Assembly (NCBI GenBank): GCA_964373415.1
Contig: CAYJUT010000001.1
Location: 1-50,892, forward strand
From: an uncultured archaeon
Lineage (GTDB): Archaea > Aenigmatarchaeota > Aenigmatarchaeia > GW2011-AR5
Direction: 5' to 3'
DNA length: 50,892 nt
The notes beneath the pieces were generated by a model. It searched no databases. It saw only the letters and a list, made by a program, of their open reading frames with translations, and was not told the origin of the DNA. Positions within the stretch are counted from its first letter, which is position 1. Every line of letters begins with the position of its first letter. This document shows positions 17,207-42,967 of the stretch, piece by piece. Position numbers and translations under genes: made by a program.

Positions 17207-17286
17207 GAGTAACACTGTTACCATGTTACTTTTTCGTTTATTTATGCTTTTAGAAGGCTAGTACAATTTTCGTAATGTTCGTAATT

Positions 17287-22007: not shown

Positions 22008-22748
22008 ATGCTGTCGATAATAGTTCCAGCTTACAATGAACAACGTATTGTAGAGAAAAATACCCTTTTAATTAGAAAAGAAATGGAAAGAATAAAGAAA
22101 AAGACGAAAGAACGCTACGAGATAATACTGATTGAAGAAAGTAGCGACAATACGCCAGAAATATGCCAAAAACTATCAAGACGTTATAAAGAAATAAGGC
22201 ACATTCACAGTAATAATAGACTAGGAAAGGGTGGTGCAATTGAAAAGGCGTTGAAAGTCTCGAAAGGTGAGAAAATAATATTCATGGATGTGGATCTATC
22301 GACAAGTCTTGGGATAACAGAAGATGTTTTAAAAAAAATGAAAGAATATGATATTGTAATAACATCGCGGTATAACCCTTCGGCCACTGTAATTAGGTCT
22401 TTTGCAAGGTCCTTTGCCGGTCAGAGCTTTTCTATAATTTTTAGGCTGATTTTCCGTACTAAAATACGTGATACAAAATGTGGTTACAAGGCTTTCAAAA
22501 AACCATTAGCCGAGAAAATAATAAAATATATCGGCAATAAGGGATGGTTCTGGGACACTGAATTTCTCATCTATGCAGAAAGGATAGGCTACACAATATG
22601 TGAGATTCCGATAGACTGGTATGAAAGGAAAGAAAGCAACGTATTTATAGTTGACAATATCGTGGATATGCTAACTAACCTTGCAAGGCTCTATATAAAA
22701 CTCAGGCTCAAAAAGTACTCGCCTAAGCGCGCAACAAAACACTTATAA
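22008..22748 (+). CDS. GT2 glycosyltransferase, polyprenyl-phosphate hexose synthase-like
   Basis: It carries LSIIVPAYNEQ and the DVD motif (FMDVDLS). Its size is about 245 aa. Confidence 0.8.
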   Translation: MLSIIVPAYNEQRIVEKNTLLIRKEMERIKKKTKERYEIILIEESSDNTPEICQKLSRRYKEIRHIHSNNRLGKGGAIEKALKVSKGEKIIFMDVDLSTSLGITEDVLKKMKEYDIVITSRYNPSATVIRSFARSFAGQSFSIIFRLIFRTKIRDTKCGYKAFKKPLAEKIIKYIGNKGWFWDTEFLIYAERIGYTICEIPIDWYERKESNVFIVDNIVDMLTNLARLYIKLRLKKYSPKRATKHL

Positions 22749-22771
22749 AGGTATACGGCGTACTATAAAAT

Positions 22772-24127
22772 ATGAAAGTTCTACTCATATTCCCGCCGCA
22801 AACGCTCACGGAGAGGTACGCACATAATGTAGAGGGGGTCGGCGGATTTCTGCCGCCGTTAGGTTTGTGCTACATGGCTGCCGTACTAGAAAGAGCCGGT
22901 CATGAAGCTCATATAATTGACTGTCCGGTAAATAACTACGGCACTGGCGACATAATGAGCGAAATATTGAACTTTAAGCCAGAACTTGTTGGCGTAGCAG
23001 CTATAACATCTCTTGCAGACGTTACAAAGGAGCTTTGTGACCTGATTAAGAATCAGTTCCCTGATGTAACTGTACTACTGGGCGGCCCGCATGCAACGAT
23101 AATGGCCAAAGAACTTTCAGAGACAACTCGTGCGGACATAATAGTCCAGGAAGAAGCCGACAACATAATAATCGATATAGTGAACAATATAGAAAAATAC
23201 AAGCAATTAAGAATAGTTAACGCAGGTAAGGTAAAAGACTTAGATTCTCTGCCATTTCCAGCCAGACATCTGCTCGACATGTCCAAATATTCCTCACTGC
23301 CAAACACATACAAAAAAGACCCGCATACATTCCAGATGGTAACAAGTCGTGGGTGTCCATTTACATGTACATTCTGTTTTGATGCAAAGGGACTGTTCAG
23401 GCAGAGAAGTGTAGCTAATGTTATGGCAGAGATACGACAGCTAAAAGATACCTACAAAATAAAGGAAATCGCATTTTGGGATGATATACTAACAATAAAC
23501 AAGAAATGGACGCATGAGTTCTGCAAGGAGATGGAAAAAGAGGGTATAATTTGGTCGTGTTACACAAGGCTCGACCTTATAGATGAACCAATGCTGCATG
23601 CTATGAAAAAAGCAGGTTGCTGGAATATATTCTTCGGCATCGAGTCAGGAGCTCAGGAGTTACTGGATAACATAACAAAGAAAATGACAGTAGAACAGAT
23701 GAAAAATGCTGTTAAGCTCGTCAAAAAAGCCGGGATAGATATAAGAGGTTCGTTCATGGTAGGGCTGCCTGGCGAAACTCCAGAACTGGCAAGAAAAACT
23801 ATCAAGCTTGCCATTGAAATGGACCCTGATTATGCGCAATTTTCAATTACAACACCATATCCAGGCACACAATTGTGGGATGACTATGAAAAATGGGGTA
23901 CATTGGACAAGAACTTTAAGAATTACCATGGCTGGTCGCCTGTCTTTGTTCCGCATGGTTACAAAAATAAGGAAGAGTTGCTTGAGATCCACCGCGAAGC
24001 GTTCAGACGCTTTTACATACGTCCTAAATATATCCTAAGAAGGGTATCAAAGATTCGCTCATTTTCCGAGCTTAAAAAAAATGTAACAGGCTTGAAAGTA
24101 GTCAAGGGCATGGTACTTAGCCAGTGA
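22772..24127 (+). CDS. B12-binding-domain radical SAM enzyme
   Basis: It has MKVLLIFPP.., SRGCPFTCTFC, FGIESG and MVGLPGETPE. Confidence 0.9.
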   Translation: MKVLLIFPPQTLTERYAHNVEGVGGFLPPLGLCYMAAVLERAGHEAHIIDCPVNNYGTGDIMSEILNFKPELVGVAAITSLADVTKELCDLIKNQFPDVTVLLGGPHATIMAKELSETTRADIIVQEEADNIIIDIVNNIEKYKQLRIVNAGKVKDLDSLPFPARHLLDMSKYSSLPNTYKKDPHTFQMVTSRGCPFTCTFCFDAKGLFRQRSVANVMAEIRQLKDTYKIKEIAFWDDILTINKKWTHEFCKEMEKEGIIWSCYTRLDLIDEPMLHAMKKAGCWNIFFGIESGAQELLDNITKKMTVEQMKNAVKLVKKAGIDIRGSFMVGLPGETPELARKTIKLAIEMDPDYAQFSITTPYPGTQLWDDYEKWGTLDKNFKNYHGWSPVFVPHGYKNKEELLEIHREAFRRFYIRPKYILRRVSKIRSFSELKKNVTGLKVVKGMVLSQ

Positions 24128-24132
24128 TATGT

Positions 24133-25605
24133 TCAGCATGAATAAATTTCAATAAGATCTAAGGAATTCTTGGTTATTGTTTTTGAAAGTGTACAGGCAT
24201 GCAATTGAATATAGTTATTGACCACTTCAGTTCCGCTAACGCCTTTGACAGCGCAACTTGCTGTCAACGAGAATTTGTCATAATACGGCTCCATCACGAA
24301 CTTATAATAGTCGCTTGTAAAAACGCTTGAGCAGTTCTGTGCAACATAATCAATTGTATCTCTCATGCCTTCTGAAAACCTGAACTCGGAATCATATATT
24401 CCTAAGGCATTTTTTAGCGGATTGTAAGACAATGCATACGAGGGCCCTGAAAAGGCCGCATACCAGAATAAAATCACAGCAATGACAGCAATCGTAATCA
24501 TCCGTTTTGGATCCTTTAGTTTGTCAACCCATCTGGAGGCTAGTATGGCAAAAAATGGTACCAGAGGTGTTATATGTCTGTAGCTGATAACTGTCCTTTG
24601 GAAAGATAGAAGAGCAAGAAACGTCAAAATAAATATGATAATGAGTTTGTCTTCTTTCAGCGGTTTTTTGGCTACGAAATATACGCCAATAGCAACAAGC
24701 ACTATTAGGAGTAGAGACTCCTTAACGATATAAAGGAAAAAATAATTCAATACAGGTATATTCATCGATAGAGGATGGCTGATGGCAGAATCAACACTGG
24801 AAAAAATACGTCTGCTAAAAGATAGAAGTACTATAGGCACGTTTGCTTCGATATGTTGTTCCCTTATTTCGCCGCCGTAATTAACCGATATGTTAGCTTC
24901 GGTGTGAAGAGTGGAAAAGCCAAATGGCCAGCTGACAAGAAAAACTACCAGCATAATGACAAGCGCCTTTAATAGCCAGTTCTTGATGTTCATAGAAAAA
25001 TTCGGCTTAATAGAAAATTTTATTTGTTTTGTATATAAAATGTAGATAAGTGCTGCAACCAAAACTATCACGGATGTAAATTTTACAGCCAGTGCCAAGC
25101 CCAACGAAACCCCTAAAAATACAAAAGTGTATTTCCTATTATCGTGTACAGCTTCCCAGAGAAAATAAACTATGAGAATATAGAAAAAAGTAAGAATAGT
25201 TTCCAGCTGTGCATACCGGCTGAATTCTATCTGGAGTATGGAAAAGGCTGTTATAATTGACGTAAGAAGTGCGACCCTTTCATTGTACATCTTTCTTACT
25301 GCAAAAAATGCTGCAAATACTGCAAATATGCCGAATAAAAGAGGAATTATCCTCAATGCAAATTCTGTGTTACCTAAAATTAAGATAGAAGCAGCGAACA
25401 TGTACTTGGCAAGTGGTGGCGTATCAAAAATATAGAAATTATTTACGAAATTTCCTTTTATGTATTCGTCAGCAGCCTGCTTTAATTCGATTTCACCGTA
25501 ACCATACGTTTCCCATGAAATGTTATTAAACCGGACGAAAAATGCTGCAATTACAATGAGAATAATGGCCATAAGTCCAAAATTAGCCCATTTAGTCTTG
25601 CTCAT
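24133..25605 (-). CDS. GT-C membrane glycosyltransferase, ArnT/PMT-like
   Basis: Polytopic protein. The first loop carries AADEY...FDTPPLAKY, which matches the family pattern DE..hPPL. Confidence 0.75.
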   Translation of the reverse strand: MSKTKWANFGLMAIILIVIAAFFVRFNNISWETYGYGEIELKQAADEYIKGNFVNNFYIFDTPPLAKYMFAASILILGNTEFALRIIPLLFGIFAVFAAFFAVRKMYNERVALLTSIITAFSILQIEFSRYAQLETILTFFYILIVYFLWEAVHDNRKYTFVFLGVSLGLALAVKFTSVIVLVAALIYILYTKQIKFSIKPNFSMNIKNWLLKALVIMLVVFLVSWPFGFSTLHTEANISVNYGGEIREQHIEANVPIVLLSFSRRIFSSVDSAISHPLSMNIPVLNYFFLYIVKESLLLIVLVAIGVYFVAKKPLKEDKLIIIFILTFLALLSFQRTVISYRHITPLVPFFAILASRWVDKLKDPKRMITIAVIAVILFWYAAFSGPSYALSYNPLKNALGIYDSEFRFSEGMRDTIDYVAQNCSSVFTSDYYKFVMEPYYDKFSLTASCAVKGVSGTEVVNNYIQLHACTLSKTITKNSLDLIEIYSC

Positions 25606-25663
25606 ATACTACCATTGTTTTTAACGTACAAAACCTTAAAAGAATGCGGTATAATAGATAATA

Positions 25664-27154
25664 ATGGCTGACATACTGGGCATTTATCCAAAAACTGGCT
25701 ACGACATTAAAAACTCTTCAGTGGAGCTACCTTTAGGATTATTATCTACAGTAGCCACTGTACACGGTGACCACGAGGTTAAAATACTCGACCAGCGTGT
25801 TGATGAAGATTTTGAAAGTCATTTTTCTAACGAACTATCAAAAGGCCCGCGTGTTGTTCTTATACCATCCATGACGGGGACCCAGCTAAAATACGCTCTT
25901 GATATATCGAGGGCTGTAAAAAACAATTCCAAATCGACCGTATTGTGGGGCGGGGTCCATGCAACCCTTATGCCTGAACAAACAATAGGCCACAAACTAA
26001 TTGACATGATAGTTATAGGGGAAGGTGAATTTGTTTTACAGAATTTAATGAGTGCTCTAGACGGGAAGGCAAAGCTTGACGAAGTAAAAGGTATAGCCTA
26101 CAAAGAAAATGGATCGGTAAAAATGAACCCTCGTGCAGATTCACCAAATCCGAATCTGATACCAGAAGTTCCTTATTATTTAGTAGATATTGAAAATTAT
26201 GTAAAAAGCGGTGGCATAGCCTTTGACGATAAAGAGCGAACATTGCCGTTTATCTCAAGTCGTGGCTGTCCTTACACATGTACGTTTTGCAGCACTGCTG
26301 GCATAAGCAAAGGTAACTGGAGGAGCATGACGGCTGAATTAACTTACGAACGTGTAATGAAAATGGTTAAAAAATACAACATTAATGTCGTCAAATTTTA
26401 TGATGAAAACTTTACATCAAACCCGAAACGTGCAGAGGCTATAGCAGAATTAGTAAATAACCAGTTTGGGTGGTCAATGCAAGCACGAATGGATAATATG
26501 CTCATAACCGACATGAAAAAACTAGAAGAAGGTGGCCTGCGCGTAGTCGAGCCTGGTGTAGAGTCTGGAAGTGATAGAATATTAAAATTTATAAACAAAG
26601 CAGAAACCAAGGCGACAATGATTGCAGCAAACAAAAAACTTGCCAAGACAGGTATAAAGGCGTTCTATAATTTCATGATGGGGTTCCCCGGCGAAAGTTA
26701 TGAGGAACTCATGGAAACAGTCGATTTGGCATTACAGCTTGTCAAAGAGAACCCGAATGCACATATAACGCAATTTTATATTTTCGTCCCTTATCTAGGG
26801 GCGCCTCTATTCGATTATGCGGTACAGCAGGGTTTTGAAGTGCCAAAAACGTTGGAAGAATGGGTTGCCTTCAGCAGGCAGCAAACGTATACACCATGGA
26901 TACAGGACAAAAAAGAGATGTTGGAAACTATAATGTACACGTCAAAGTTTGTTGATGGAAAACGTCTCTGTCAAGTTCTAAGAAATACCAAAGTACCAAA
27001 ATTCTTTATACGTGCGTTATCTTCAAACTACAGGAAAAGCTGGGAGAAGCATAAATTCAAGAAAACGACTAGCGTGAAGGTGTTAGACATGATGGTAAAG
27101 AGAAACTTTGGATGGGAGTCGGGAACTACTTTTGAAATGGCGCAGAATGAATAG
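25664..27154 (+). CDS. B12-binding-domain radical SAM enzyme
   Basis: It has SRGCPYTCTFC, PGVESGS and MMGFPGESYEE. Confidence 0.9.
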   Translation: MADILGIYPKTGYDIKNSSVELPLGLLSTVATVHGDHEVKILDQRVDEDFESHFSNELSKGPRVVLIPSMTGTQLKYALDISRAVKNNSKSTVLWGGVHATLMPEQTIGHKLIDMIVIGEGEFVLQNLMSALDGKAKLDEVKGIAYKENGSVKMNPRADSPNPNLIPEVPYYLVDIENYVKSGGIAFDDKERTLPFISSRGCPYTCTFCSTAGISKGNWRSMTAELTYERVMKMVKKYNINVVKFYDENFTSNPKRAEAIAELVNNQFGWSMQARMDNMLITDMKKLEEGGLRVVEPGVESGSDRILKFINKAETKATMIAANKKLAKTGIKAFYNFMMGFPGESYEELMETVDLALQLVKENPNAHITQFYIFVPYLGAPLFDYAVQQGFEVPKTLEEWVAFSRQQTYTPWIQDKKEMLETIMYTSKFVDGKRLCQVLRNTKVPKFFIRALSSNYRKSWEKHKFKKTTSVKVLDMMVKRNFGWESGTTFEMAQNE

Positions 27155-27162
27155 TATATTGG

Positions 27163-28698: not shown

Positions 28699-29420
28699 TC
28701 AAACCGCCTAACAGCTTTCCATTTTGCTATTTTAGAAAGCATCTTGACATGATTAATAAATTCTTTCTTATTATCAAGTTTGGATTCTCCGTATATGCGT
28801 GTAGTAAGTTTTACAGGTACCTCTTCTATATGGCATTTATTATTTACCATCTTAACGAGTATTTCTGCACATACGTCAAAACTCTTGCTATTTAATTTTA
28901 GTTTTTTTAACTCTTTTGACTTGTAAAGTCTGAAAATAGAACTTATCGTAGATATTTTCTTCCCGAGAAGCATGCTATAAAGTTTGTTGACGCCTCTACT
29001 TAGTATAAGTCTGTGGAACACTACATCAGTATTACCCTTTGGACTGAAGTGCGAGCCTACTACACAGTCGCAGTTTGTTTCAGTATATTTTTTGTAAAGA
29101 CTTGGTATTTCCCTAGGATGAAATGTAAAATCCGAGTCTAGAAAAACTGTTATGTTGCCCTTTACATTCTTTATACCTGTTCGTGTTGCCTCTGCTAAAC
29201 CAATATTTTCCTTATGCTTTACTATTCTGATATTTTTGCATTTTTTTGCAATTATAGATGTCTCATGATAGGTTTTATCAGTAGATCCGTCATCTATAAT
29301 TATAACTTCGTACTTTATTGGCATTCTGTCAAGAACTGTCAATAGCTCTTTTGGTATTCTCTTTATGTTATCCTCTTCGTTATAGGCAGGTATGACTACC
29401 GATATAAAATCTCTTTTCAT
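28695..29420 (-). CDS. GT2 glycosyltransferase, polyprenyl-phosphate hexose synthase-like
   Basis: It has ISVVIPAYNEEDNI and IIIDDGSTD. It overlaps the downstream GT-C gene as ATGA. Confidence 0.8.
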   Translation of the reverse strand: MKRDFISVVIPAYNEEDNIKRIPKELLTVLDRMPIKYEVIIIDDGSTDKTYHETSIIAKKCKNIRIVKHKENIGLAEATRTGIKNVKGNITVFLDSDFTFHPREIPSLYKKYTETNCDCVVGSHFSPKGNTDVVFHRLILSRGVNKLYSMLLGKKISTISSIFRLYKSKELKKLKLNSKSFDVCAEILVKMVNNKCHIEEVPVKLTTRIYGESKLDNKKEFINHVKMLSKIAKWKAVRRFE

Positions 29421-29444
29421 AAAATACCTTCTTCATAATTTCCT

Positions 29445-30566
29445 TCAAGCATTCTTAAGAATGTGAGCAACAATTTTTTCGGCTGCCTTTCCATCTCCAA
29501 ATGGATTCTTCCATGTCCTAGATATTGACAACATTGTTTCAACTGACGATAATATTTTAGCCGGGTCCGCGCCAGCCAGAACGGATGCTCCAACTTCTAA
29601 AGATTCGGGACGATCGCTTCTATCCCTGAGCACTACACAAGGTACTTTCAAACTACATGTCTCTTCTTGTATACCGCCAGAATCTGTCAAAACAAGTTTA
29701 GCATTGGCTTCTAATGCCAGAAGATCAAAAAATCCTAATGGTTCTATGGCATGCAGATTCTTTATGGCATTTAATTTGCCAAGCAGTTTAAATTCTTCCA
29801 GGCGTTTCTTCGTGCGTGGATGTATAGGATAGACAATTGGAAGTTTATAATGTTCAGCAACATTATCAATTCCCTTTATTATACCTTCCAATCTAGCCAT
29901 GTTGTCCGTATTCTCTTCTCTGTGTGCAGTAACCAAGAAATATTCGCCATTCAAAATGCCTAACTTTGAAAAAATCTGTGACTTGTTAGACTTGTCAAGA
30001 TTTTGCTGTATAGCATCGACAATAGTATTGCCTGTCAAGATTATTTCTGGTGTCCTTATACCATTATAATAAAGAATATTATTTTTTGCTACGCCCTCTT
30101 TGTAAAGATTTCTTTCGGTTAGTTTAGTTGGAGTAAAAAGGTAGTCGGATATGTGATCACATATTATCCTGTTGTATTCTTCTGGCATTCGTCTGTCATA
30201 ACTTCTTAGACCAGCTTCTACGTGACCAAGTGGCACATGCAATTTTGTACTGACTAAAGATGCCGCCAGCACCGTGTTTGTATCGCCCTGCACTAGAACT
30301 ACGTCAGGCTTCTTTTCGATAAATATTTTTTCTACGTCAATCATAATTCTAGAAGTTGTTTCGGTGTGGCTGCCGGATCCGACATCAAGATTTGTAATCG
30401 CCGGCTTCATACCTAATTCGTTAAAAAATATCTTACCCATGTTAAAGTCATAATGTTGGCCCGTGTGCAAGACAAAATAATCTATCTTATCGCGTTCGCA
30501 GATACGTATTATAGGGCTGAACTTTATTATTTCTGGTCTCGTACCCAATACGATAGCTATTTTCAT
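29445..30566 (-). CDS. wecB: UDP-N-acetylglucosamine 2-epimerase (non-hydrolysing)
   Basis: It carries MKIAIVLGTRPEIIKFSPI, HTGQHYD and LTDSGGIQEE. Confidence 0.9.
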   Translation of the reverse strand: MKIAIVLGTRPEIIKFSPIIRICERDKIDYFVLHTGQHYDFNMGKIFFNELGMKPAITNLDVGSGSHTETTSRIMIDVEKIFIEKKPDVVLVQGDTNTVLAASLVSTKLHVPLGHVEAGLRSYDRRMPEEYNRIICDHISDYLFTPTKLTERNLYKEGVAKNNILYYNGIRTPEIILTGNTIVDAIQQNLDKSNKSQIFSKLGILNGEYFLVTAHREENTDNMARLEGIIKGIDNVAEHYKLPIVYPIHPRTKKRLEEFKLLGKLNAIKNLHAIEPLGFFDLLALEANAKLVLTDSGGIQEETCSLKVPCVVLRDRSDRPESLEVGASVLAGADPAKILSSVETMLSISRTWKNPFGDGKAAEKIVAHILKNA

Positions 30567-31519
30567 CTAGCCACCTTCTTTCTCCAGTAATCCATGACAT
30601 CCTTCATACTCTGTTCGAAAGGTATTTCTGGCTCCCATCCAGTTTTATTGCTAAATTTTGTATAATCGCCTAGAAGTATTTGTATGTCACTGGGCCGCAT
30701 CCTTGCCGGATCCTCTTTTATCTCTATTTTCTTCGATGACATTGAAAGAAGCATGTTAAGAACATCTCTTATCTTCCATGTTTTCCCTGAGCATATGTTG
30801 TACGCTTCGCCGTACTCGCACTTGTCTACGGCCATAACGTATGCTCTCACTATGTCACGTACGTCAGTAAAGTCTCTGTAAGAATCTAGATTTCCAACAT
30901 GTATTATCGGGGTAGCGTCATTCTCTATCTCGGCTATCTGCCTAGCGAATGCGGCAGTCACTATCTTTTCCGCGCTCCGTGGGCCTACTATGTTGAATGC
31001 CCTTGTTCTGACGACTTTGATACCATAACTTTTGTTATATTGATAACCAAGCAAATCTTGGGCTACTTTAGAAACAGCATACGGGCTGAGCGGTCTTAGC
31101 TGGTTTGTTTCTTTTATTGGTGTTTCTCCGGGTAATACTAGGCCATACTCCTCGCTGCTGCCAGCTATCTGGATAACAGTATCAATTTTAGATCTTCTGA
31201 TGGATTCAAGGAGGTTTAGTGTCCCTATAACATTTGTGTTTATAGTCTCCTGTGGCGCACGCCAGCTAGTTGGCACAAATGATTGTGCTGCAAGATGAAA
31301 TATCACATCTGGCGCAGCTTCTTCAAGCGTCTGTGAGACTGAATTCGTGTCTGTAAGATCGCATTCCAGAAGTGTTATGTCAGTTTTTATTTTTTCGATG
31401 AATTCTGTCTGCCTACTCCTACCTCTCACAGTCCCAATAACTTCATGGCCACATGCTATCAGGTACTCTGCCATGTGGCTTCCTGTAAAGCCTGTTACAC
31501 CAGTTACTAAGGCTCGCAT
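30563..31519 (-). CDS. GDP-mannose/heptose 4,6-dehydratase-like SDR (full-length paralog)
   Basis: It has TGVTGFTGSH and SPYAVSK, and is 318 aa long. Confidence 0.85.
   Translation of the reverse strand: MRALVTGVTGFTGSHMAEYLIACGHEVIGTVRGRSRQTEFIEKIKTDITLLECDLTDTNSVSQTLEEAAPDVIFHLAAQSFVPTSWRAPQETINTNVIGTLNLLESIRRSKIDTVIQIAGSSEEYGLVLPGETPIKETNQLRPLSPYAVSKVAQDLLGYQYNKSYGIKVVRTRAFNIVGPRSAEKIVTAAFARQIAEIENDATPIIHVGNLDSYRDFTDVRDIVRAYVMAVDKCEYGEAYNICSGKTWKIRDVLNMLLSMSSKKIEIKEDPARMRPSDIQILLGDYTKFSNKTGWEPEIPFEQSMKDVMDYWRKKVAR
31095..31168. repeat. 74-nt tract identical to 12137-12210
   Basis: I compared the two tracts base by base and they match exactly. Confidence 0.9.
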
Positions 31520-31574
31520 TTAGAAAGAAAAGGAAAGAAAGGATTTAAAGTGTGTCTAGTACAGAAATAAAAAC

Positions 31575-32450
31575 TTAGAATCCCCATAAACCCTTATGCC
31601 ACTTGAGTATTGAAAGGTCCATGCGGTAAATTGCCATAAATAGGCATAACCATGTGCATGGCGGGGAAATTGACCAAAATATCCATGAAAATCGCGACTT
31701 CCAGCGTGGGAAGAATTTATCAGCAAAAATTCTGTGGTATTTTCCGCATAAGTAGAAATGTTCGTAATCTTTGTCAGCCCCGCCATTGCGTATCTTTATA
31801 TGCCATACAAATGCTTCTGGCATATACATGAATTTTTTGCCCTTTTTTATTAAGGCCATCTGAGGAAAGTTCTCTTCCCTGAAACCATAACCTTCTCTAT
31901 AAAAATTGTGAAACCTGCCAACCGCTTTCAGTTCCTTGGTAAGGAACGACATATTAGCACCTATCATCGCACTACATTCTGTGGGTTTATTTGGTATCCA
32001 TGCACAGTTAAAGCGCACATCTCCAAAGGAATTAACAAAGTTCTGTTTTCTGTTAGTATATTTGTAAGGTACTATTGGTCTTAGATTTGTATCAGAGTTC
32101 ACAGAAGGTCCTGCGACAGCTACTATATCGCTACTAAAACCGTAGCCTTTTATGATATTTTCAAGCCACCTTTCCTTTGGGACGGCATCGTCATCAAGAA
32201 ATGCCAGTATTTCGGTTTTGGTATTTTTTAGTATTAGATTTCTAGCAGCTGGCTGGCGGACACGTTTTTTAAGATGGAGATATTTTATTGGAAGTTTGTA
32301 TTTTTTAATTACTTCCCGTGTTAAATTATTATCGCTCGTATCTACTATTATAATTCTCTCTGATTTTGTTGTCTGATTCTTTACGCCATCAAGACACTTT
32401 GTTATTATATCCGACCTGTTATGTGTTATGATACCAATCGTGACGTTCAT
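31575..32450 (-). CDS. GT2 glycosyltransferase
   Basis: It has VTIGIITHNR and the FLDDDAVP (DxD) motif. Confidence 0.8.
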   Translation of the reverse strand: MNVTIGIITHNRSDIITKCLDGVKNQTTKSERIIIVDTSDNNLTREVIKKYKLPIKYLHLKKRVRQPAARNLILKNTKTEILAFLDDDAVPKERWLENIIKGYGFSSDIVAVAGPSVNSDTNLRPIVPYKYTNRKQNFVNSFGDVRFNCAWIPNKPTECSAMIGANMSFLTKELKAVGRFHNFYREGYGFREENFPQMALIKKGKKFMYMPEAFVWHIKIRNGGADKDYEHFYLCGKYHRIFADKFFPRWKSRFSWIFWSISPPCTWLCLFMAIYRMDLSILKWHKGLWGF

Positions 32451-32505
32451 AGTATAAAATCACCTGGAGAATCCTAAAGAATATTAACCGGAATTCTGTA
32501 TGTAG

Positions 32506-34272
32506 TTATTTGCCGCTTATTAGACCTTTTATCACCATCTTGGCTGCACGCGGTATGTCCCTTTTCTTTATCGAAGTCATGTTAGCATAATAATAAGCTC
32601 GCACGCGCTCCTCTGCTGTATATTCCGGAGTGTCAAATACCGGTTTTGGTCTTGCACCTATGTGAAATCCGTCTTTCCAGTCCCTATGTATACGTGCTCT
32701 AGAATCATTTTTGACCTGTTCCCAAACCTCTGTGCCAGGGTATGGAACTAGTATGCCCCAAGAAGCTGTTATACCAAGCCTTTTTGCAAACTCCATTGAC
32801 CTCTTATCAGCTTCATAAGTGCTTCCTATTAGCCCTATTATGAAGAATCCGTGAACCTTTATTCCCGCGGCCTGTGCGAGTCTTATTCCTTTCTCAACAT
32901 CCGCTAGTCTCTCACCCTTCTTTATTTTATCGAATACCTCTGGATCGCCGCTCTCGACTCCGATAGACATTGAATAGCAGCCGGCTTGCTTCATGAGTGT
33001 GCAAAGCTCTTCATCCAGCCTATCAGCCCTTATTCCGTTCGGGCACGTCCACTTCATGTCTAATTTTTCATCTACGAAAAGCCTGCATATGTCCTTTGCC
33101 CTGTCCATCTGCAGTGTGAAATTGTCATCGAGAACTTTGAATTCTTTGCTGCCGTATTTTTCGTGAGCGTATCGCAATTCAGCCAGTATGTTCTCGCCGG
33201 ATCGCGTTCTGAATTTCCTGCCTATGACAGTTGGCACATTACAATTTGAGACTGCTATTCCATTCACGGTATAAGTATGATCATTCTGAACTTCAAGATT
33301 ATATACGTAACCGGAAAACTCGATCTCTTCTATAGAACTTATCGAAATAGGATTTTCATATTTGGTACAATGCAATAATAGTTGATTTCCTGAGTATACG
33401 GTCTGTTGAATTGATGGAACTATTTCTACAACCTTATCGCCTATTTTTAATTTATCTGAACTTACCATTTCAAAGTCGTTTCTTGCTACTTTTATTTTGT
33501 GATTTGGCGTAGTTATTATAGGCTCTTTTCCTTCTATATATATTTTTATCATTTTTCCTGAATAATGGCGTTTGAAAGTCCTTACAACATTTTTCCATCT
33601 GCCTTTATCTGTGAGAACTCTCATACCGCTATTAATATCCTTTATTTCAATCATTCCGGAATCTGTAATTACTTTCATATCTTCTCTAAAGCAATATGTG
33701 CATGTATAGGGACATCCGCGCGAAGTTACAAGCGGCCAATTCTCAATAGGTCGAATTTTCCCGTCAACATTTATCGAATCAAAATCATCGTAAACTGGAA
33801 ATGGTAAATCATCAAGACCTGCTATCCATTCACTTGCATGGTTTTGTATAACTTGTCCGTCTTTTCTGTAAATTACACCCTCTATTTCAGAAGGGTCTAC
33901 ACCAGACAGAAGTTGCTTGAAAACATACTCGGCCTCCCCGAAAATACCGAGGTCAAAAATAGAGTTGTCTTTCAATAGATTATAACCGTCAACCATTACG
34001 TGGGGGCCGCCGGCAACTATTTTTGCGTTCGGGTTGATTTTTTTGACCATTTCAGCGACCATTATAGACTCGTCCAACGTAAATGACTTGATAGATATAC
34101 CAACATAATCGGCGTCTTTCGTGACTTGCAGTCTTTTTTCCACATTGCCAGATCTGTTGACAAAATCGACTACATTAACATCGTGATCATTTCTTACATT
34201 GGCTGCTATGGAGGCTATTCCGTTATTCAAGCCTTCCCATACGCCCTTTGGATCGATAAAAACCACTTTCAT
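32506..34272 (-). CDS. B12-binding-domain radical SAM enzyme precursor containing a mini-intein
   Basis: The ATG at 34272 is preceded by AGGTG. The radical-SAM motif is split as GCPYTCTY-[150 aa]-CNVPT. The exteins align with the paralog at 15740-17206. Confidence 0.9.
   Translation of the reverse strand: MKVVFIDPKGVWEGLNNGIASIAANVRNDHDVNVVDFVNRSGNVEKRLQVTKDADYVGISIKSFTLDESIMVAEMVKKINPNAKIVAGGPHVMVDGYNLLKDNSIFDLGIFGEAEYVFKQLLSGVDPSEIEGVIYRKDGQVIQNHASEWIAGLDDLPFPVYDDFDSINVDGKIRPIENWPLVTSRGCPYTCTYCFREDMKVITDSGMIEIKDINSGMRVLTDKGRWKNVVRTFKRHYSGKMIKIYIEGKEPIITTPNHKIKVARNDFEMVSSDKLKIGDKVVEIVPSIQQTVYSGNQLLLHCTKYENPISISSIEEIEFSGYVYNLEVQNDHTYTVNGIAVSNCNVPTVIGRKFRTRSGENILAELRYAHEKYGSKEFKVLDDNFTLQMDRAKDICRLFVDEKLDMKWTCPNGIRADRLDEELCTLMKQAGCYSMSIGVESGDPEVFDKIKKGERLADVEKGIRLAQAAGIKVHGFFIIGLIGSTYEADKRSMEFAKRLGITASWGILVPYPGTEVWEQVKNDSRARIHRDWKDGFHIGARPKPVFDTPEYTAEERVRAYYYANMTSIKKRDIPRAAKMVIKGLISGK
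33244..33693 (-). mobile_element. Mini-intein (150 aa, no homing endonuclease domain)
   Basis: Cys1 lies in CFREDMKVITDSG (block A), TPNH is block B, and YVYNLEVQNDHTYTVNGIAVSN covers blocks F/G with the terminal Asn. A +1 Cys follows. The three paralogs in this window lack the insert. Confidence 0.85.
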
Positions 34273-40243: not shown

Positions 40244-40244
40244 A

Positions 40245-42243: not shown

Positions 42244-42310
42244 TCTATCAGTCCCTTGTATCGCAATATTACGAATAATCTTATTTAAGTTGTCTGTTTA
42301 TAGATTTTGT

Positions 42311-42967
42311 ATGTTTTTGTCAGTTATAATACCAACCATAAATGAGGAAAAATCGATAGGCAGTACAATAAAAAGAGTTGGGAAACACCTGAAAAATATC
42401 CGTCACGAAATAATAATAGTTGATACAAATTCTACTGATAAAACAGTAAAAATAGCTAAATCACTTGGTTCAAATGTAATAAACGAACCGAGAAGAGGAT
42501 ATGGACAGGCATATAAAACAGGCTTTAAACATGTAAAAGGTGATATCATCGCGACACTCGATGCGGATTCGACATATCCTGTAGAAAGTATACTTAATCT
42601 AGTAGATACTTTAGAAAAATATAATGTTGATTTCGTGAGCGGTATGCGAAAACGCTCGGAAAATATGAGCCTGTTGCATAAGTTTGGAAATTGGGTTATA
42701 ACAACATGGATAAACATTATGTTCTTTACAAGATTTTCAGATTCGCAGTCTGGTATGTGGGTATTTAGAAAAAGTCTCCTGAAGAGAATGAATTTGACAA
42801 ACAGTCGGTGGCCATTCTCCGGTGAAATAAAAATTGAAGCGTGGAAAAACGGAAAATTTCTAGAAGTTCCAATAGAATATAGAACACGAAGAGGAGAGTC
42901 AAAAGTCAGGAGCTGGAAAGTGGGCTGGGAAAACATAGTATTTTATTTTAAGAAAAGATTTAGATGA
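42311..42967 (+). CDS. GT2 glycosyltransferase, polyprenyl-phosphate sugar synthase-like
   Basis: It has LSVIIPTINEEKSI and ATLDADSTYP. The tracker start at 42290 is TTG, so the ATG at 42311 is preferred. Confidence 0.8.
   Translation: MFLSVIIPTINEEKSIGSTIKRVGKHLKNIRHEIIIVDTNSTDKTVKIAKSLGSNVINEPRRGYGQAYKTGFKHVKGDIIATLDADSTYPVESILNLVDTLEKYNVDFVSGMRKRSENMSLLHKFGNWVITTWINIMFFTRFSDSQSGMWVFRKSLLKRMNLTNSRWPFSGEIKIEAWKNGKFLEVPIEYRTRRGESKVRSWKVGWENIVFYFKKRFR

What the first reader, a model, noticed from the sequence alone, without database searches (positions are those of the whole stretch)
22008..34272. Repeated GT2 / B12-radical-SAM / GT-C arrangement: candidate pathway for radical modification of lipid-linked sugars
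**Seen in sequence.** Three sets lie within 12 kb:
- GT2 22008-22748 and rSAM 22772-24127 converge on GT-C 24133-25605 with a 5-nt gap.
- rSAM 25664-27154 converges on GT-C 27163-28698, which is ATGA-coupled to GT2 28695-29420.
- rSAM with intein 32506-34272 lies directly upstream of GT2 31575-32450.
- Two of the GT2s (22008-22748 and 28695-29420) have polyprenyl-phosphate hexose synthase-like N-termini (IVPAYNE); the third (31575-32450) shows only generic GT2 motifs.
- The GT-Cs have ArnT/PMT-type first loops (DE...hPP).
- No small precursor-peptide ORFs lie beside the rSAMs, which argues against a RiPP cluster.

**Established precedents.**
- HpnI (GT2) and HpnJ (B12-rSAM) make the hopanoid cyclitol ether by ring contraction.
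- The Sulfolobus rSAM Cds makes calditol head groups.
- Class B rSAMs C-methylate sugars.

**Inference.**
- Each set makes a polyprenyl-P sugar, remodels it by radical chemistry (C-methylation, epimerisation or carbocycle formation), and transfers it outside the cell through the paired GT-C.
- I know of no described archaeal system built from this triad.
Basis: partly seen in the sequence, partly recalled or inferred. Interest (0 to 1): 0.75.

Follow-up and report, generated by a model that had tools for sequence, protein, structure and literature searches.

The report
B12 radical-SAM enzymes in lipid-sugar glycosylation modules
A small uncultured (DPANN-type) archaeon carries a large surface-sugar gene island in which vitamin-B12-dependent radical enzymes sit next to the enzyme pairs that load a sugar onto a lipid carrier and transfer it outside the cell; this pairing recurs in distant archaea and bacteria and points to an undescribed way of chemically remodelling surface sugars, though what the enzymes do is still unproven.

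Summary
Every ORF is at the stated coordinates with the stated domains. Within the 37-gene glycan island, rSAM–(GT2 or GT-C) adjacency occurs 5 times against 1.5 expected (p≈0.005).

The four B12-rSAMs are old paralogs (25–40% identity), not recent duplicates. None reaches any curated family cutoff (HpnJ, BchE, AprD4, PhpK, Tes, RiPP types).

- **Sets 1 and 2 are real, conserved modules.** The block SDR–GT2a–rSAM1–GT-C1–rSAM2–GT-C2–GT2b–WecB recurs in relatives. rSAM1 orthologs keep a GT2 or GT-C-like gene within two genes in 9 of 10 lineages, including an Elusimicrobia bacterium.
- **GT2a and GT2b** match the dolichyl- or undecaprenyl-phosphate sugar synthases DPMS, ArnC and GtrB best.
- **Fusions** of homologs to a polyprenyl-phosphate phosphoglycosyltransferase and to a flippase-like membrane domain place these rSAMs at the lipid-carrier machinery.
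- **Set 3 is not supported as a triad.** GT2c is generic and its adjacency is not conserved. The conserved partner of rSAM3 is a GT4.

Whether the rSAMs act on the lipid-linked sugar or on its nucleotide-sugar precursor is unresolved, and so is the chemistry. Ten literature searches found no description of this arrangement. Verdict: new variant of a known kind, moderately high interest.

The parts
21011..21967 (-). NAD-dependent sugar epimerase/4,6-dehydratase-type SDR. It is the probable nucleotide-sugar tailoring step of module 1.
   Evidence: Pfam GDP_Man_Dehyd/Epimerase. NCBIfam best hits are LegB and dTDP-Glc/GDP-Man 4,6-dehydratases, all below cutoff. Orthologs stay beside rSAM1 in L086, L087 and L082, with an SDR also nearby in L084.
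22008..22748 (+). GT2a: short (246 aa, no TM segment) DPM1/ArnC-like polyprenyl-phosphate sugar synthase candidate.
   Evidence: Pfam Glycos_transf_2. Best PDB sequence hits are ArnC, PfDPMS and GtrB. NCBIfam best hits are PgfS, Dol-P hexose transferase and ArnC. GT2a-type genes lie beside rSAM1 orthologs in L083, L084 and L082.
22772..24127 (+). rSAM1: B12-binding radical SAM enzyme from a tightly conserved orthogroup.
   Evidence: Pfam B12-binding + Radical_SAM. CxxxCxxC is invariant in the 28-sequence alignment A1. The AF2 model has pLDDT 92.4. Closest folds are AprD4, MgmA, TsrM, CysS and OxsB. Orthologs are 79-92% identical in relatives whose GT-Cs are only 36-70% identical.
24133..25605 (-). 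GT-C1: PMT_2-family membrane glycosyltransferase that uses a lipid-phosphate-sugar donor.
   Evidence: Pfam PMT_2 76.7 bits and PMT 41 bits. It has 9 hydrophobic segments. The first-loop GE(I/V)E...NFYIFDTPPL motif is conserved in orthologs.
25664..27154 (+). rSAM2: a second B12-binding radical SAM enzyme from a different orthogroup.
   Evidence: Pfam. It is 27% identical to rSAM1. Orthologs are 81-89% identical in L086, L087 and L082. Homologs P0176 and P0184 (47% identity) are fused to Bac_transf.
27163..28698 (-). GT-C2: PMT_2-family membrane glycosyltransferase, translationally coupled to GT2b.
   Evidence: Pfam PMT_2 63.9 bits. It has 10 hydrophobic segments. The ATGA overlap with GT2b is shown.
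28695..29420 (-). GT2b: short (241 aa) DPM1/AglJ/ArnC-like polyprenyl-phosphate sugar synthase candidate.
   Evidence: The best PDB hit is P. furiosus Dol-P-Man synthase 5mlz (E 3.5e-24, residues 6-235), followed by ArnC and GtrB. NCBIfam best hits are AglJ, ArnC, PgfS and PpgS.
29445..30566 (-). WecB-type non-hydrolysing UDP-GlcNAc 2-epimerase, which would supply UDP-ManNAc. It is the probable sugar supplier for module 2.
   Evidence: NCBIfam TIGR00236 at 406 bits, above the 210 cutoff. An Epimerase_2 gene stays with GT2b-type, GT-C2-type and rSAM2 genes in L082, L086 and L087.
30563..31519 (-). Second 4,6-dehydratase/epimerase-type SDR, overlapping the start of WecB.
   Evidence: Pfam GDP_Man_Dehyd 280 bits. 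NCBIfam LegB/Gmd-like, below cutoff.
31575..32450 (-). GT2c: generic GT2, not the polyprenyl-phosphate synthase type.
   Evidence: Pfam GT2. NCBIfam best hits are MftF, EpsD and HpsN. Its adjacency to rSAM3 is not conserved.
32506..34272 (-). rSAM3: B12-binding radical SAM enzyme interrupted by a mini-intein.
   Evidence: Pfam B12-binding, Radical_SAM and Intein_splicing. Intein-free orthologs are exactly 438 aa at 85-89% identity, which equals the predicted extein length.
33244..33693 (-). 150-aa mini-intein inserted in the CxxxCxxC iron-sulfur motif of rSAM3.
   Evidence: The translation reads ...CPYTCTY|C-FREDM...AVSN|C-NVPTV. The +1 Cys restores the third cluster cysteine after splicing. 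TIGR01445 and TIGR01443 hit the N- and C-terminal splicing regions.
34511..35635 (+). GT4 glycosyltransferase divergent from rSAM3. It is the conserved partner of the rSAM3 orthogroup.
   Evidence: Pfam Glycos_transf_1/Glyco_transf_4. A divergent GT4 lies next to rSAM3 orthologs in L093, L096 and L097.
15740..17224 (-). rSAM0: fourth B12-binding radical SAM enzyme, in a co-directional gene run with a HIT protein and an SDR.
   Evidence: Pfam. Its closest window paralog is rSAM3 (32-40% identity). The 91% ortholog in L086 has the same HIT and SDR neighbours.
42290..45784 (.). rSAM-less comparison module: GT2 (42290-42967 +), IS200 transposase (43007-43438 -), PMT_2 GT-C (43622-44791 -) and the flippase-like LPG_synthase_TM (44843-45784 +).
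   Evidence: Pfam. It matches the archaeal GT2 + GT-C + LPG_synthase_TM neighbourhood predicted in PMC5898192.
4251..8969 (.). Nucleotide-heptose-type activation cassette: NTP-transferase, GHMP kinase, SIS isomerase, a HAD phosphatase-NTP-transferase fusion and an SDR.
   Evidence: Pfam. The same enzyme set lies directly beside rSAM1- or rSAM2-like genes in L084, L090, L091 and L095.
10046..11626 (-). Wzx/MurJ-type polysaccharide flippase of the island.
   Evidence: Pfam Polysacc_synt, MatE and MurJ. A Polysacc_synt gene directly precedes the rSAM1 ortholog in L084.
39161..41651 (-). Oligosaccharyltransferase AglB/STT3 split into two ORFs. It marks the island as protein-glycosylation related.
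   Evidence: Pfam STT3 N-terminal on 40245-41651. A YWDPG (WWDYG-like) motif lies in 39161-40252. The two ORFs overlap by 8 nt.

Best explanation
**What it is.** The region is the core of a surface-glycan island of about 41 kb (about 4.2-45.8 kb) in a DPANN-type archaeon, probably Aenigmatarchaeota. It holds two complete lipid-carrier monosaccharide modules of the Arn / Gtr / AglD-AglS kind. Each module has one B12-dependent radical SAM enzyme added.

**Proposed steps.**
1. A cytoplasmic enzyme prepares a nucleotide sugar. This is the SDR 21011 for module 1, and the WecB 2-epimerase 29445 with SDR 30563 for module 2.
2. A short DPM1/ArnC-like GT2 (GT2a or GT2b) loads the sugar onto dolichyl/polyprenyl phosphate.
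3. The B12-rSAM (rSAM1 or rSAM2) remodels the sugar by H-atom-abstraction chemistry at the cytoplasmic face of the membrane. Candidates are C-methylation, diol dehydration followed by SDR reduction, ring contraction or epimerisation. The likeliest substrate is the carrier-linked sugar.
4. The product is flipped. Candidate flippases are LPG_synthase_TM 44843 and the Wzx-like 10046.
5. The PMT_2 GT-C (GT-C1 or GT-C2) transfers it to an extracellular protein or glycan acceptor.

**The other two rSAMs.** rSAM3 (conserved partner GT4) and rSAM0 (partners HIT and SDR) are further glycan-tailoring paralogs. They are not part of GT2/GT-C triads.

**Shown:** domain identities, conserved gene linkage, fusions, and non-membership of known rSAM families.

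**Inferred:** the order of steps, the substrate stage, and the chemistry.
For: - **Domains and family tests:**
- **Conserved block.** SDR-GT2a-rSAM1-GT-C1-rSAM2-GT-C2-GT2b-WecB is kept in L086/L089, L087/L088 and L001, and rearranged but still linked in L082.
- **rSAM1 orthologs (44-92% identity).** A GT2 or GT-C-like gene lies within two genes in 9 of 10 lineages.
  - Elusimicrobia L084 has flippase -> rSAM1 -> PMT_2 (1-nt gap) -> GHMP kinase -> GT2a-like -> SDR -> NTP-transferase.
  - Other co-directional rSAM->GT-C pairs occur in L093 (4-nt overlap) and L094.
- **rSAM2 orthologs.** A GT2 lies within two genes in 7 of 9 lineages.
- **Adjacency enrichment:** p=0.005 in the window; p=0.0015 and p<0.0005 across 91 loci.
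- **Fusions.**
  - rSAM2-like + full Bac_transf polyprenyl-P phosphoglycosyltransferase in P0176 and P0184.
  - rSAM1-like + LPG_synthase_TM in P0456.
  - Four fusions to class-I methyltransferases and four tandem rSAM-rSAM fusions.
- **Conservation.** The rSAMs are far better conserved (79-92%) than the neighbouring GT-Cs (35-70%) and GT2s (30-78%). This fits a fixed chemistry feeding variable acceptors.
- **Membrane proximity.** rSAM1, rSAM2 and rSAM3 have cationic amphipathic C-terminal helices.
- **Profile and fold neighbours.** The best profile match of all four rSAMs is HpnJ, which acts on a lipid-anchored hexosamine. The closest solved fold is the sugar-acting AprD4.
- **Precedents for tailoring a carrier-linked sugar** (established knowledge): ArnD on Und-P-Ara4FN, DprE1/E2 on decaprenyl-P-ribose, and AglP on Dol-P-glycan.
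Against: - There is no biochemical evidence; everything rests on genomic context.
- The same rSAM orthogroups also keep SDR, NTP-transferase, GHMP-kinase, SIS and HAD neighbours. PGT fusions are known for enzymes that act on the nucleotide sugar as well. The substrate could therefore be the NDP-sugar.
- In the window, rSAM1/GT-C1 and rSAM2/GT-C2 are convergent, so they are not co-transcribed.
- One rSAM1 ortholog (L002, 69% identity) sits among housekeeping genes.
- Partners are swapped in L093, where a GT-C1-type gene is coupled to an rSAM3-like gene.
- An rSAM-less GT2/GT-C/flippase module in the same window (42290-45784) shows the rSAM is dispensable for the basic pathway.
- No dedicated GtrA-type flippase lies next to either module.
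- GT2a and GT2b lack the C-terminal TM helices of ArnC, GtrB and PfDPMS.
Confidence: 0.5

Rival explanations
1. The rSAMs tailor nucleotide sugars. They modify the NDP-sugar (for example an NDP-heptose/hexose or UDP-ManNAc derivative) in the cytoplasm, before GT2 or GT4 uses it. They sit beside the glycosyltransferase that consumes their product, as is usual in glycan clusters. One concrete version is AprD4/AprD3-like: radical diol dehydration by the rSAM, then reduction by the adjacent SDR, giving a deoxy sugar.
For: - An SDR lies directly beside rSAM1 orthologs (window, L082, L086, L087) and rSAM2-like genes (L090, L091).
- NTP-transferase, GHMP-kinase, SIS and HAD cassettes adjoin the rSAMs in L084, L090, L091 and L095, and one is present in the window at 4251-8969.
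- rSAM0 lies in a co-directional gene run with a HIT protein and an SDR.
- rSAM3 pairs with a cytoplasmic GT4 rather than a GT-C.
- AprD4 is the closest solved structure by sequence (E 9e-42) and by fold (TM 0.73).
- From established knowledge, Fom3 and OxsB show that B12-rSAMs accept nucleotide-linked substrates.
Against: - Fusions to LPG_synthase_TM and to a membrane PGT, and the tight rSAM->GT-C coupling (1-nt gap, 4-nt overlap), place the enzyme at the membrane machinery rather than in the soluble pathway.
- The AprD4 family model scores only 42-108 bits against a 500 cutoff, below the HpnJ and BchE models.
- From established knowledge, AprD4 does not use cobalamin. Here the B12-binding domain scores strongly (46-78 bits).
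Confidence: 0.3
2. The rSAMs act on another membrane-bound substrate of the pathway. Candidates are a lipid-linked oligosaccharide (tailoring after GT4/GT2 extension), the polyprenyl carrier itself, or a glycolipid head group in the manner of HpnJ or Cds (ring contraction to a cyclitol).
For: - HpnJ is the best-scoring family model for all four rSAMs.
- rSAM3 orthologs pair with a GT4 and a Wzx-type flippase.
- Tandem rSAM-rSAM and rSAM-methyltransferase fusions suggest several successive tailoring steps on one anchored substrate.
- From established knowledge, AglP methylates a Dol-P-linked glycan in Haloferax.
Against: - HpnJ scores of 124-215 bits are far below the 577.6 cutoff, and no hopanoid or tetraether-lipid genes are adjacent.
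- The orthogroups occur in bacteria and in DPANN archaea alike, which have unrelated membrane lipids.
- The specific pairing with DPM1-like GT2s and PMT_2 GT-Cs points to a monosaccharide carrier route.
Confidence: 0.12
3. The co-location is incidental. B12-rSAMs are extremely numerous in anaerobic uncultured lineages and simply accumulate in variable islands. Their substrates (peptides, cofactors, lipids) would have nothing to do with the neighbouring glycosyltransferases.
For: - The superfamily is huge: 28,007 representative clusters at E<=1e-30.
- L002 shows an rSAM1 ortholog outside any glycan context.
- The enrichment over within-locus shuffles is only 1.6- to 1.8-fold.
- ApyD and rSAM_ocin RiPP models give mid-range hits.
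Against: - Linkage persists across domains at 44-58% identity, with operonic overlaps.
- There are domain fusions to PGT and LPG_synthase_TM.
- There is no space for precursor peptides: gaps are 5-58 nt.
- RiPP family scores are far below their cutoffs.
- The adjacency statistics are significant.
Confidence: 0.05

Closest known systems
Arn pathway (ArnA/B-ArnC-ArnD-ArnE/F-ArnT) of Gram-negative bacteria
   Same: The logic is the same. An SDR-type enzyme prepares the nucleotide sugar, a GT2 (ArnC) loads it on polyprenyl phosphate, a tailoring enzyme acts on the carrier-linked sugar (ArnD deformylase), the product is flipped, and a GT-C (ArnT) transfers it outside. GT2a and GT2b hit ArnC structures directly.
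   Different: The tailoring enzyme here is a B12-dependent radical SAM protein, not a hydrolase. The acceptor is unknown and is not lipid A. The host is an archaeon. The GT2s lack TM helices. No ArnE/F-type flippase is adjacent.
Three-component Gtr / AglD-AglR-AglS / CsbB-GtcA-YfhO-type glycosylation, and the archaeal neighbourhood arCOG00897 (AglD-like GT2) + arCOG00563 (PMT/STT3-like GT-C) + arCOG00899 (LPG_synthase_TM) predicted in PMC5898192
   Same: A DPM1-like GT2 is paired with a PMT_2-type GT-C, and an LPG_synthase_TM gene is in the island. The window holds a plain copy of this module at 42290-45784.
   Different: Modules 1 and 2 each carry a B12-rSAM inserted between or beside the GT2 and the GT-C. 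None of the descriptions found mentions such a component.
HpnI/HpnK/HpnJ (hopanoid cyclitol ether formation) and Cds (calditol synthase)
   Same: A GT2 attaches a hexosamine or hexose to a lipid, and a radical SAM enzyme then remodels the lipid-anchored sugar. HpnJ is the top-scoring curated model for all four window rSAMs.
   Different: Scores are 124-215 bits against a cutoff of 577.6, so these are not HpnJ. There are no hopanoid or tetraether genes. The lipid here is inferred to be a transient polyprenyl-phosphate carrier followed by a GT-C, not a membrane lipid end product. Cds could not be compared because no reference sequence was available.
Sugar-acting (B12-)radical SAM tailoring enzymes of secondary metabolism: GenK/GenD1 and Fom3 (C-methylation), AprD4/AprD3 (radical diol dehydration plus reduction), OxsB (ring contraction)
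   Same: The two-domain architecture is the same. AprD4 is the closest solved structure by sequence and fold. An adjacent SDR recalls AprD3.
   Different: The family models score far below cutoff (AprD4 42-108 against 500; PhpK-type 86-152 against 600). The context is primary cell-surface glycan assembly in DPANN archaea and candidate-phylum bacteria, not antibiotic clusters. The substrate class is unknown.
DprE1/DprE2 + GT-C arabinosyltransferases, and PpgS + Rv3779, of mycobacteria
   Same: A sugar is remodelled while on the polyprenyl-phosphate carrier (decaprenyl-P-ribose to -arabinose) and is then used only by GT-C enzymes. PpgS is a short GT2 without TM helices, and GT2b hits the PpgS model (52.6 bits).
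   Different: The chemistry there is flavin/NADH redox epimerisation, not radical SAM. The enzymes are not homologous.

Membership tests
HpnJ (TIGR03471, hopanoid-associated B12 radical SAM) | Whole-protein score at or above the curated equivalog cutoff of 577.6 bits | tested here: not met
   Scores are 215.2 (rSAM1), 123.9 (rSAM2), 190.6 (rSAM3) and 183.4 (rSAM0) bits.
HpnJ (TIGR03471, hopanoid-associated B12 radical SAM) | Hopanoid gene context (shc/hpnF, hpnH, hpnI, hpnK) | tested here: not met
   No squalene-hopene cyclase, HpnH or HpnK was found among the window genes scanned with Pfam.
BchE (TIGR02026) | Score at or above 481 bits | tested here: not met
   Window rSAMs score 81-194 bits. 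Genuine BchE proteins from L064, L068, L074 and L081 score 774-834.
Tetraether lipid synthase Tes (NF045703) | Score at or above 1700 bits over the enzyme core | tested here: not met
   Only rSAM3 hits, at 49.5 bits and through its intein region (residues 217-285).
GDGT ring synthases GrsA/GrsB and calditol synthase Cds | Sequence clustering with Saci_1585, Saci_0240 or Saci_1489 | not tested
   No reference sequence or model was available in the tools. Indirectly, the same orthogroups occur in Elusimicrobia, Brocadiia and candidate-phylum bacteria, which lack such lipids.
AprD4 radical SAM diol dehydratase (NF033070) | Score at or above 500 bits | tested here: not met
   Scores are 108, 42, 88 and 104 bits. 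It is nevertheless the closest solved structure (E 9e-42, TM 0.73).
Class B (cobalamin-dependent) radical SAM enzymes | An N-terminal B12-binding Rossmann domain plus a CxxxCxxC radical SAM core | tested here: met
   PF02310 scores 46-78 bits and PF04055 scores 78-90 bits in all four. C195, C199 and C202 are invariant in A1. The fold matches MgmA, TsrM, CysS, OxsB and TokK.
Class B (cobalamin-dependent) radical SAM enzymes | Actual cobalamin binding and methyl transfer (SAH formation) | not testable with these tools
   This needs cofactor analysis and an activity assay.
RiPP-maturing B12-rSAMs (ApyD NF050148; rSAM_ocin_1 TIGR03975) | Score above cutoff and an adjacent precursor-peptide gene | tested here: not met
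   ApyD scores 111-180 bits against 750. rSAM_ocin_1 scores 72-102 bits against 282. Intergenic gaps beside the rSAMs are 5-58 nt.
Polyprenyl-phosphate glycosyltransferases of GT2 (DPM1 / DPMS / ArnC / GtrB / AglJ / PpgS type) | GT-A domain with a DxD motif, and closest similarity to the characterised polyprenyl-P sugar synthases over the full length | tested here: met
   GT2b hits 5mlz DPMS at E 3.5e-24 over residues 6-235, then ArnC and GtrB. GT2a hits ArnC, DPMS and GtrB. The DVD and DSD motifs are visible. GT2c does not qualify: its best hits are MftF and EpsD.
Polyprenyl-phosphate glycosyltransferases of GT2 (DPM1 / DPMS / ArnC / GtrB / AglJ / PpgS type) | A curated equivalog score (AglJ 325, ArnC 529, Dol-P hexose transferase 375, PpgS 370) | tested here: not met
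   The best scores are 81.5 (AglJ, GT2b) and 62.9 (PgfS, GT2a) bits. This makes them family-level relatives, not equivalogs.
Polyprenyl-phosphate glycosyltransferases of GT2 (DPM1 / DPMS / ArnC / GtrB / AglJ / PpgS type) | C-terminal transmembrane helices (present in ArnC, GtrB and PfDPMS; absent in human DPM1 and PpgS) | tested here: not met
   GT2a and GT2b have 0 hydrophobic segments. They resemble the short DPM1/PpgS form.
GT-C glycosyltransferases, PMT_2 / ArnT-PMT type | Pfam PMT_2 above the gathering score, a polytopic membrane protein, and an acidic motif in the first external loop | tested here: met
   PMT_2 scores 76.7 and 63.9 bits against 26.1. There are 9-10 hydrophobic segments. 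The GEIE and GDEID motifs are conserved. There were no PDB sequence hits, and the fold was not modelled.
Three-component lipid-carrier glycosylation system (GT2 + flippase + GT-C) | A dedicated small flippase (GtrA, ArnE/F, GtcA or AglR) adjacent to the GT2/GT-C pair | tested here: not met
   None lies within 22008-29420. Candidates elsewhere in the island are LPG_synthase_TM 44843-45784 and Polysacc_synt 10046-11626.

The most novel reading that the evidence does not exclude
rSAM1 and rSAM2 would found a widespread, uncharacterised class of cobalamin-dependent radical SAM enzymes whose substrate is a polyprenyl-phosphate-linked monosaccharide. They would carry out radical C-methylation, deoxygenation or carbocycle formation on the lipid carrier, between the DPM1-like GT2 and the GT-C. 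This would give DPANN archaea, Elusimicrobia and candidate-phylum bacteria surface glycans built from sugars that no known pathway makes.
Probability: 0.35. Interest if true: 0.8.

Novelty: new variant of a known kind. Interest (0 to 1): 0.6.

Why it matters
B12-binding radical SAM proteins of the COG1032 type are among the largest pools of enzymes with unknown function in uncultured anaerobes. A profile of one orthogroup alone found 28,007 representative clusters at E<=1e-30.

This analysis ties several well-conserved orthogroups to one defined and testable biochemical setting: the GT2 -> flip -> GT-C lipid-carrier route of surface glycosylation. It also identifies minimal gene sets that could be expressed together, for example SDR + GT2a + rSAM1, or the seven-gene Elusimicrobia module.

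If the rSAMs act on carrier-linked sugars, that would be:
- a new substrate class for radical SAM chemistry;
- a new tailoring step in archaeal and bacterial glycan assembly;
- a source of unusual sugars on the surfaces of host-dependent DPANN and CPR organisms, whose cell-cell contact depends on their envelopes.

If they act on nucleotide sugars instead, they still define new sugar-modifying enzymes.

Tried and rejected
- **Recent tandem duplication of one triad: rejected.** The rSAM paralogs are 25-40% identical, GT-C1/GT-C2 24% and GT2a/GT2b 26%.
- **Membership in HpnJ, BchE, Tes, AprD4, PhpK, HpnR, Mmp10-type or RiPP families: rejected** on curated cutoffs.
- **RiPP cluster: rejected.** There is no room for precursor ORFs and the scores are below cutoff.
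- **Set 3 as a conserved rSAM-GT2 pair: rejected.** The adjacency is absent in L096, L097 and L093.
- **Genome-contig scan with alignment A1.** It returned mostly 28-42% relatives and only one ortholog. It was still useful as a broad background set.
- **Metagenome-contig scan with the single protein.** It returned only four close loci.
- **PDB sequence searches for GT-C1 and GT-C2.** No hits. The GT-C fold was not modelled, because only window sequences could be submitted and no deep alignment was available.
- **Ten literature searches.** No paper linked B12-rSAMs to polyprenyl-P sugars, GT-C enzymes or PGT fusions. This is absence in an open-access corpus only.
- **Rfam and tRNA scans of the window.** Nothing found.
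- **Extra invariant cysteines.** C251, C263 and C283 of rSAM1 are also present in rSAM0 and rSAM3 but absent in rSAM2. They were noted as a possible auxiliary-cluster site, but this was not pursued and carries no weight.
- **Chemistry.** Sequence and fold gave no way to tell methylase from non-methylase chemistry.

Full report
**1. Checking the observation**

Pfam confirms their domains above the gathering thresholds:

| Gene | Coordinates | Domain |
|---|---|---|
| GT2a | 22008-22748 (+) | GT2 |
| rSAM1 | 22772-24127 (+) | B12-binding + Radical_SAM |
| GT-C1 | 24133-25605 (-) | PMT_2 |
| rSAM2 | 25664-27154 (+) | B12-binding + Radical_SAM |
| GT-C2 | 27163-28698 (-) | PMT_2 |
| GT2b | 28695-29420 (-) | GT2 |
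| GT2c | 31575-32450 (-) | GT2 |
| rSAM3 | 32506-34272 (-) | B12-binding + Radical_SAM + intein domains |
| rSAM0 | 15740-17224 (-) | B12-binding + Radical_SAM |

- The 5-nt convergent gap, the ATGA overlap of GT2b and GT-C2, the IVPAYNE N-termini and the acidic first-loop motifs of the GT-Cs are all as described.
- Intergenic gaps next to the rSAMs are 5-58 nt, so there is no room for precursor peptides.
- The arrangement exceeds chance. In the 37-gene island there are five rSAM-(GT2 or GT-C) adjacencies against 1.5±1.1 expected (p=0.005).

**2. Setting**

- The window is a complete 50,892-bp NCBI contig (P0241) from a DPANN-type archaeon. The closest named homologs are Aenigmatarchaeota.
- Nearly the whole stretch from about 4.2 to 45.8 kb is one glycan island. 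It contains:
  - a nucleotide-heptose-type activation cassette (4251-8969);
  - three GT4s;
  - a Wzx-type flippase;
  - seven NAD-dependent SDR genes of the sugar epimerase/dehydratase type;
  - a true WecB equivalog (406 bits against a cutoff of 210);
  - a carbamoyltransferase;
  - a class-I methyltransferase;
  - a split AglB/STT3;
  - a further GT2 + PMT_2 + LPG_synthase_TM module that has no rSAM (42290-45784).
- That last module matches the archaeal GT2/GT-C/flippase neighbourhood predicted by Makarova et al. (PMC5898192). It serves as an internal control: the basic module exists with and without an rSAM.

**3. What the rSAMs are**

- The four proteins are old paralogs, 25-40% identical over BLAST local alignments.
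- Against NCBIfam, every one hits HpnJ best, at 124-215 bits against a cutoff of 577.6. BchE, ApyD, PhpK-type, AprD4, HpnR and others follow, and none comes near its cutoff. The Tes model is hit only through the intein.
- Genuine BchE proteins recovered in the genome scan score 774-834 bits on the BchE model. The test therefore discriminates.
- A 28-sequence alignment of rSAM1 orthologs (47-79% identical to the window protein) gives an AlphaFold model with pLDDT 92.4.
- The closest solved structures, by sequence and by fold, are:
  - the sugar-acting AprD4 (TM 0.73);
  - the B12 methylases MgmA, TsrM, CysS and TokK;
  - the ring-contracting OxsB.
- The proteins are therefore bona fide B12-rSAM-fold enzymes of a clade with no characterised member. 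The kind of chemistry cannot be read from sequence.

**4. What the glycosyltransferases are**

- GT2a and GT2b are short (about 245 aa), have no TM segment, and best match exactly the three structurally known polyprenyl-phosphate sugar synthases:
  - P. furiosus Dol-P-Man synthase (E 3.5e-24 over the whole of GT2b);
  - ArnC;
  - GtrB.
- Their best NCBIfam hits are AglJ, ArnC, PgfS, Dol-P hexose transferase and PpgS.
- GT2c is a generic GT2.
- GT-C1 and GT-C2 are PMT_2 proteins with 9-10 hydrophobic segments and conserved acidic first-loop motifs.

**5. Is the linkage conserved?**

Yes for sets 1 and 2.

- The block SDR-GT2a-rSAM1-GT-C1-rSAM2-GT-C2-GT2b-WecB is intact in L086/L089 (rSAM1 92% identical) and L087/L088 (85%). 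It is rearranged but still linked in L082 (79%).
- Further out:
  - Ca. Iainarchaeum (67%) has GT2a-like -> rSAM1, with a second GT2 and rSAM next to them.
  - An Elusimicrobia bacterium (58%) has flippase -> rSAM1 -> PMT_2 (1-nt gap) -> GHMP kinase -> GT2a-like -> SDR -> NTP-transferase.
  - L094 (55%) has a GT-C-like PTPS_related gene directly upstream.
  - L093 (48%) has a GT2 directly downstream.
- Overall, 9 of 10 non-redundant rSAM1 lineages have a GT2 or GT-C-like gene within two genes. The exception is L002, which lies among housekeeping genes.
- For rSAM2, 7 of 9 lineages have a GT2 within two genes.
- rSAM1, rSAM2 and rSAM3 orthologs repeatedly lie on the same contigs, judged by matching contig lengths.
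- Several loci carry many B12-rSAMs interleaved with short GT2s, PMT_2 and LPG_synthase_TM genes. L094 has seven in 21 kb.
- In 91 non-redundant loci, immediate GT-C/rSAM and GT2/rSAM adjacency exceeds within-locus shuffles: 22 against 12.4±2.8, and 36 against 22.2±3.8.
- The rSAMs are far better conserved than their neighbours, as shown below. This fits a fixed chemistry feeding diversifying transferases.

| Locus | rSAM1 / rSAM2 identity | GT-C1 / GT-C2 identity |
|---|---|---|
| L082 | 79% / 81% | 36% / 35% |
| L086 | 92% / 89% | 70% / 49% |

**6. Set 3 does not hold as a triad**

- rSAM3 orthologs in L096 (77%), L097 (50%) and L093 (53%) are not followed by a GT2c-like gene. The downstream genes are a formyltransferase, a flippase and a PMT respectively.
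- What is conserved in all four cases is a divergently oriented GT4.
- In L093 the rSAM3-like gene overlaps a GT-C1-type PMT gene by 4 nt. rSAM/GT-C partnerships are therefore exchanged between orthogroups.

**7. Fusions**

- Two rSAM2 homologs (P0176 and P0184, 47% identical) are fused to a complete Bac_transf domain, the monotopic polyprenyl-phosphate phosphoglycosyltransferase.
- Among the 150 best representatives of the rSAM1 profile:
  - one protein is fused to the LPG_synthase_TM membrane domain;
  - four are fused to class-I methyltransferases;
  - four are tandem rSAM-rSAM proteins.
- The two membrane-protein fusions tether the rSAM to machinery that handles lipid-linked sugars.
- The methyltransferase and tandem fusions suggest several successive tailoring steps on one substrate.

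**8. Mechanism and its rival**

- The best-supported reading is that modules 1 and 2 are Arn/Gtr/AglD-AglS-like lipid-carrier monosaccharide pathways with an added radical tailoring step at the cytoplasmic membrane face. The steps are set out in the best explanation.
- The main rival is that the rSAMs act one step earlier, on the nucleotide sugar. Supporting this:
  - SDR, NTP-transferase, GHMP-kinase, SIS and HAD genes are equally faithful neighbours (L084, L090, L091, L095).
  - rSAM0 lies in a co-directional gene run with a HIT protein and an SDR.
  - The closest structure, AprD4, works with an SDR reductase on a free sugar substrate.
- PGT fusions are compatible with either stage.
- My estimates:

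| Reading | Probability |
|---|---|
| rSAMs are glycan-tailoring enzymes functionally tied to these modules (whichever substrate) | about 0.9 |
| Best explanation as stated (carrier-linked sugar the likeliest substrate) | about 0.5 |
| Rival: NDP-sugar stage | about 0.3 |
| Rival: another membrane-bound substrate | about 0.12 |
| Rival: incidental co-location | about 0.05 |

The strict claim that the substrate is the polyprenyl-phosphate monosaccharide itself is narrower than the best explanation, and I put it at about 0.35.

**9. Novelty**

- Both ingredients are known kinds: GT2/GT-C lipid-carrier modules, and B12-rSAM sugar tailoring in antibiotic pathways.
- Tailoring of carrier-linked sugars has precedents in ArnD, DprE1/E2 and AglP (established knowledge).
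- The combination was not found in ten full-text searches. A 2026 review of lipid-modifying radical SAM enzymes lists only Tes, Grs, Gms/Gmm, Cds and HpnH/J/P/R (PMC13459092).
- I therefore classify it as a new variant of a known kind. If the substrate proves to be the polyprenyl-phosphate sugar, it would be a new enzyme class.

Noticed in passing
window 33244-33693 (-), within rSAM3 32506-34272: A 150-aa mini-intein sits exactly inside the CxxxCxxC iron-sulfur motif. The intein's Cys1 follows ...CPYTCTY, and the +1 Cys becomes the third cluster ligand only after splicing. Intein-free alleles (438 aa, 85-89% identical) and intein-bearing alleles (583-620 aa) both occur in close relatives, so the intein is sporadic.
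   Followed up: yes
window 39161-41651 (-): The oligosaccharyltransferase AglB/STT3 is split into two ORFs that overlap by 8 nt. One holds the TM domain (468 aa). The other is a 363-aa C-terminal part with a YWDPG (WWDYG-like) motif. A relative (L096 4447-6759) shows a similar 401 + 368 aa pair, so this may be a real split rather than a frameshift error.
   Followed up: partly
window 43007-43438 (-): An IS200/Y1-type transposase gene is inserted between the GT2 (42290-42967) and the PMT_2 GT-C (43622-44791) of the rSAM-less module.
   Followed up: no
L090 10001-12178 (P0184); P0176; P0456; P0405, P0462, P0466, P0473; P0376, P0452, P0434, P0424; P0364: Natural fusions of these B12-rSAMs exist with a polyprenyl-P phosphoglycosyltransferase (Bac_transf), LPG_synthase_TM and class-I methyltransferases. 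There are also tandem rSAM-rSAM proteins, and giant proteins with up to seven rSAM-like stretches (2331 aa). The giant ones were not examined and could be gene-call merges.
   Followed up: partly
L090 12180-18809 and L091 11509-18019; also L095 12904-16706: A conserved cassette lies directly after rSAM2-like genes in two unrelated bacteria: SDR, NTP-transferase, GHMP kinase, adh_short, GFO_IDH, SIS, HAD and transaldolase (TAL_FSA). The enzyme set resembles the GDP-heptose route and, with the transaldolase, the GDP-octose route of lincosamide biosynthesis (LmbR/N/P/K/O, from memory). This hints that the sugar handled may be a higher-carbon sugar.
   Followed up: no
L096 9352-13386 and L097 2415-4777: Folate one-carbon enzymes lie next to rSAM3 orthologs in two distant genomes: formyltransferase, SHMT, FolD and 5-formyl-THF cyclo-ligase. 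This may indicate N-formylated sugars or one-carbon supply. The window copy of rSAM3 has no such neighbours.
   Followed up: no
L094 (GCA_053533215.1, JAIYNM010000007.1), whole 21-kb locus: Seven B12-rSAM genes lie in 21 kb, interleaved with GT2, PMT_2, PTPS_related, LPG_synthase_TM, methyltransferase and SPASM-rSAM genes. This is an extreme case of the arrangement.
   Followed up: partly
window 19227-20852 (+): A 541-aa protein with about 11 hydrophobic segments has no Pfam or NCBIfam hit and no homolog in the fetched loci. Its start overlaps the SDR gene 18212-19243 on the other strand by 17 nt. It may be an undescribed polymerase or GT-C-like protein. The relative L086 lacks it.
   Followed up: partly
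L083 7516-9108 (-) and L095 19468-21111 (+): Two homologous membrane proteins of about 540 aa (E 3e-18 to each other) lie beside LPG_synthase_TM genes in rSAM-rich glycan loci. One has only a weak DUF2079 hit. They may stand in for the PMT_2 GT-C there.
   Followed up: partly
window 35666-36332 (+): Three small ORFs (63, 70 and 78 aa) with hydrophobic stretches fill the gap upstream of the NodU-like carbamoyltransferase (36342-38084). No RNA family matched.
   Followed up: no
rSAM1 residues C251, C263, C283 (window 22772-24127): Three further cysteines are invariant in the rSAM1 orthogroup. They are also present at matching positions in rSAM0 and rSAM3, but absent in rSAM2. They could bind an auxiliary cluster or be structural.
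   Followed up: no
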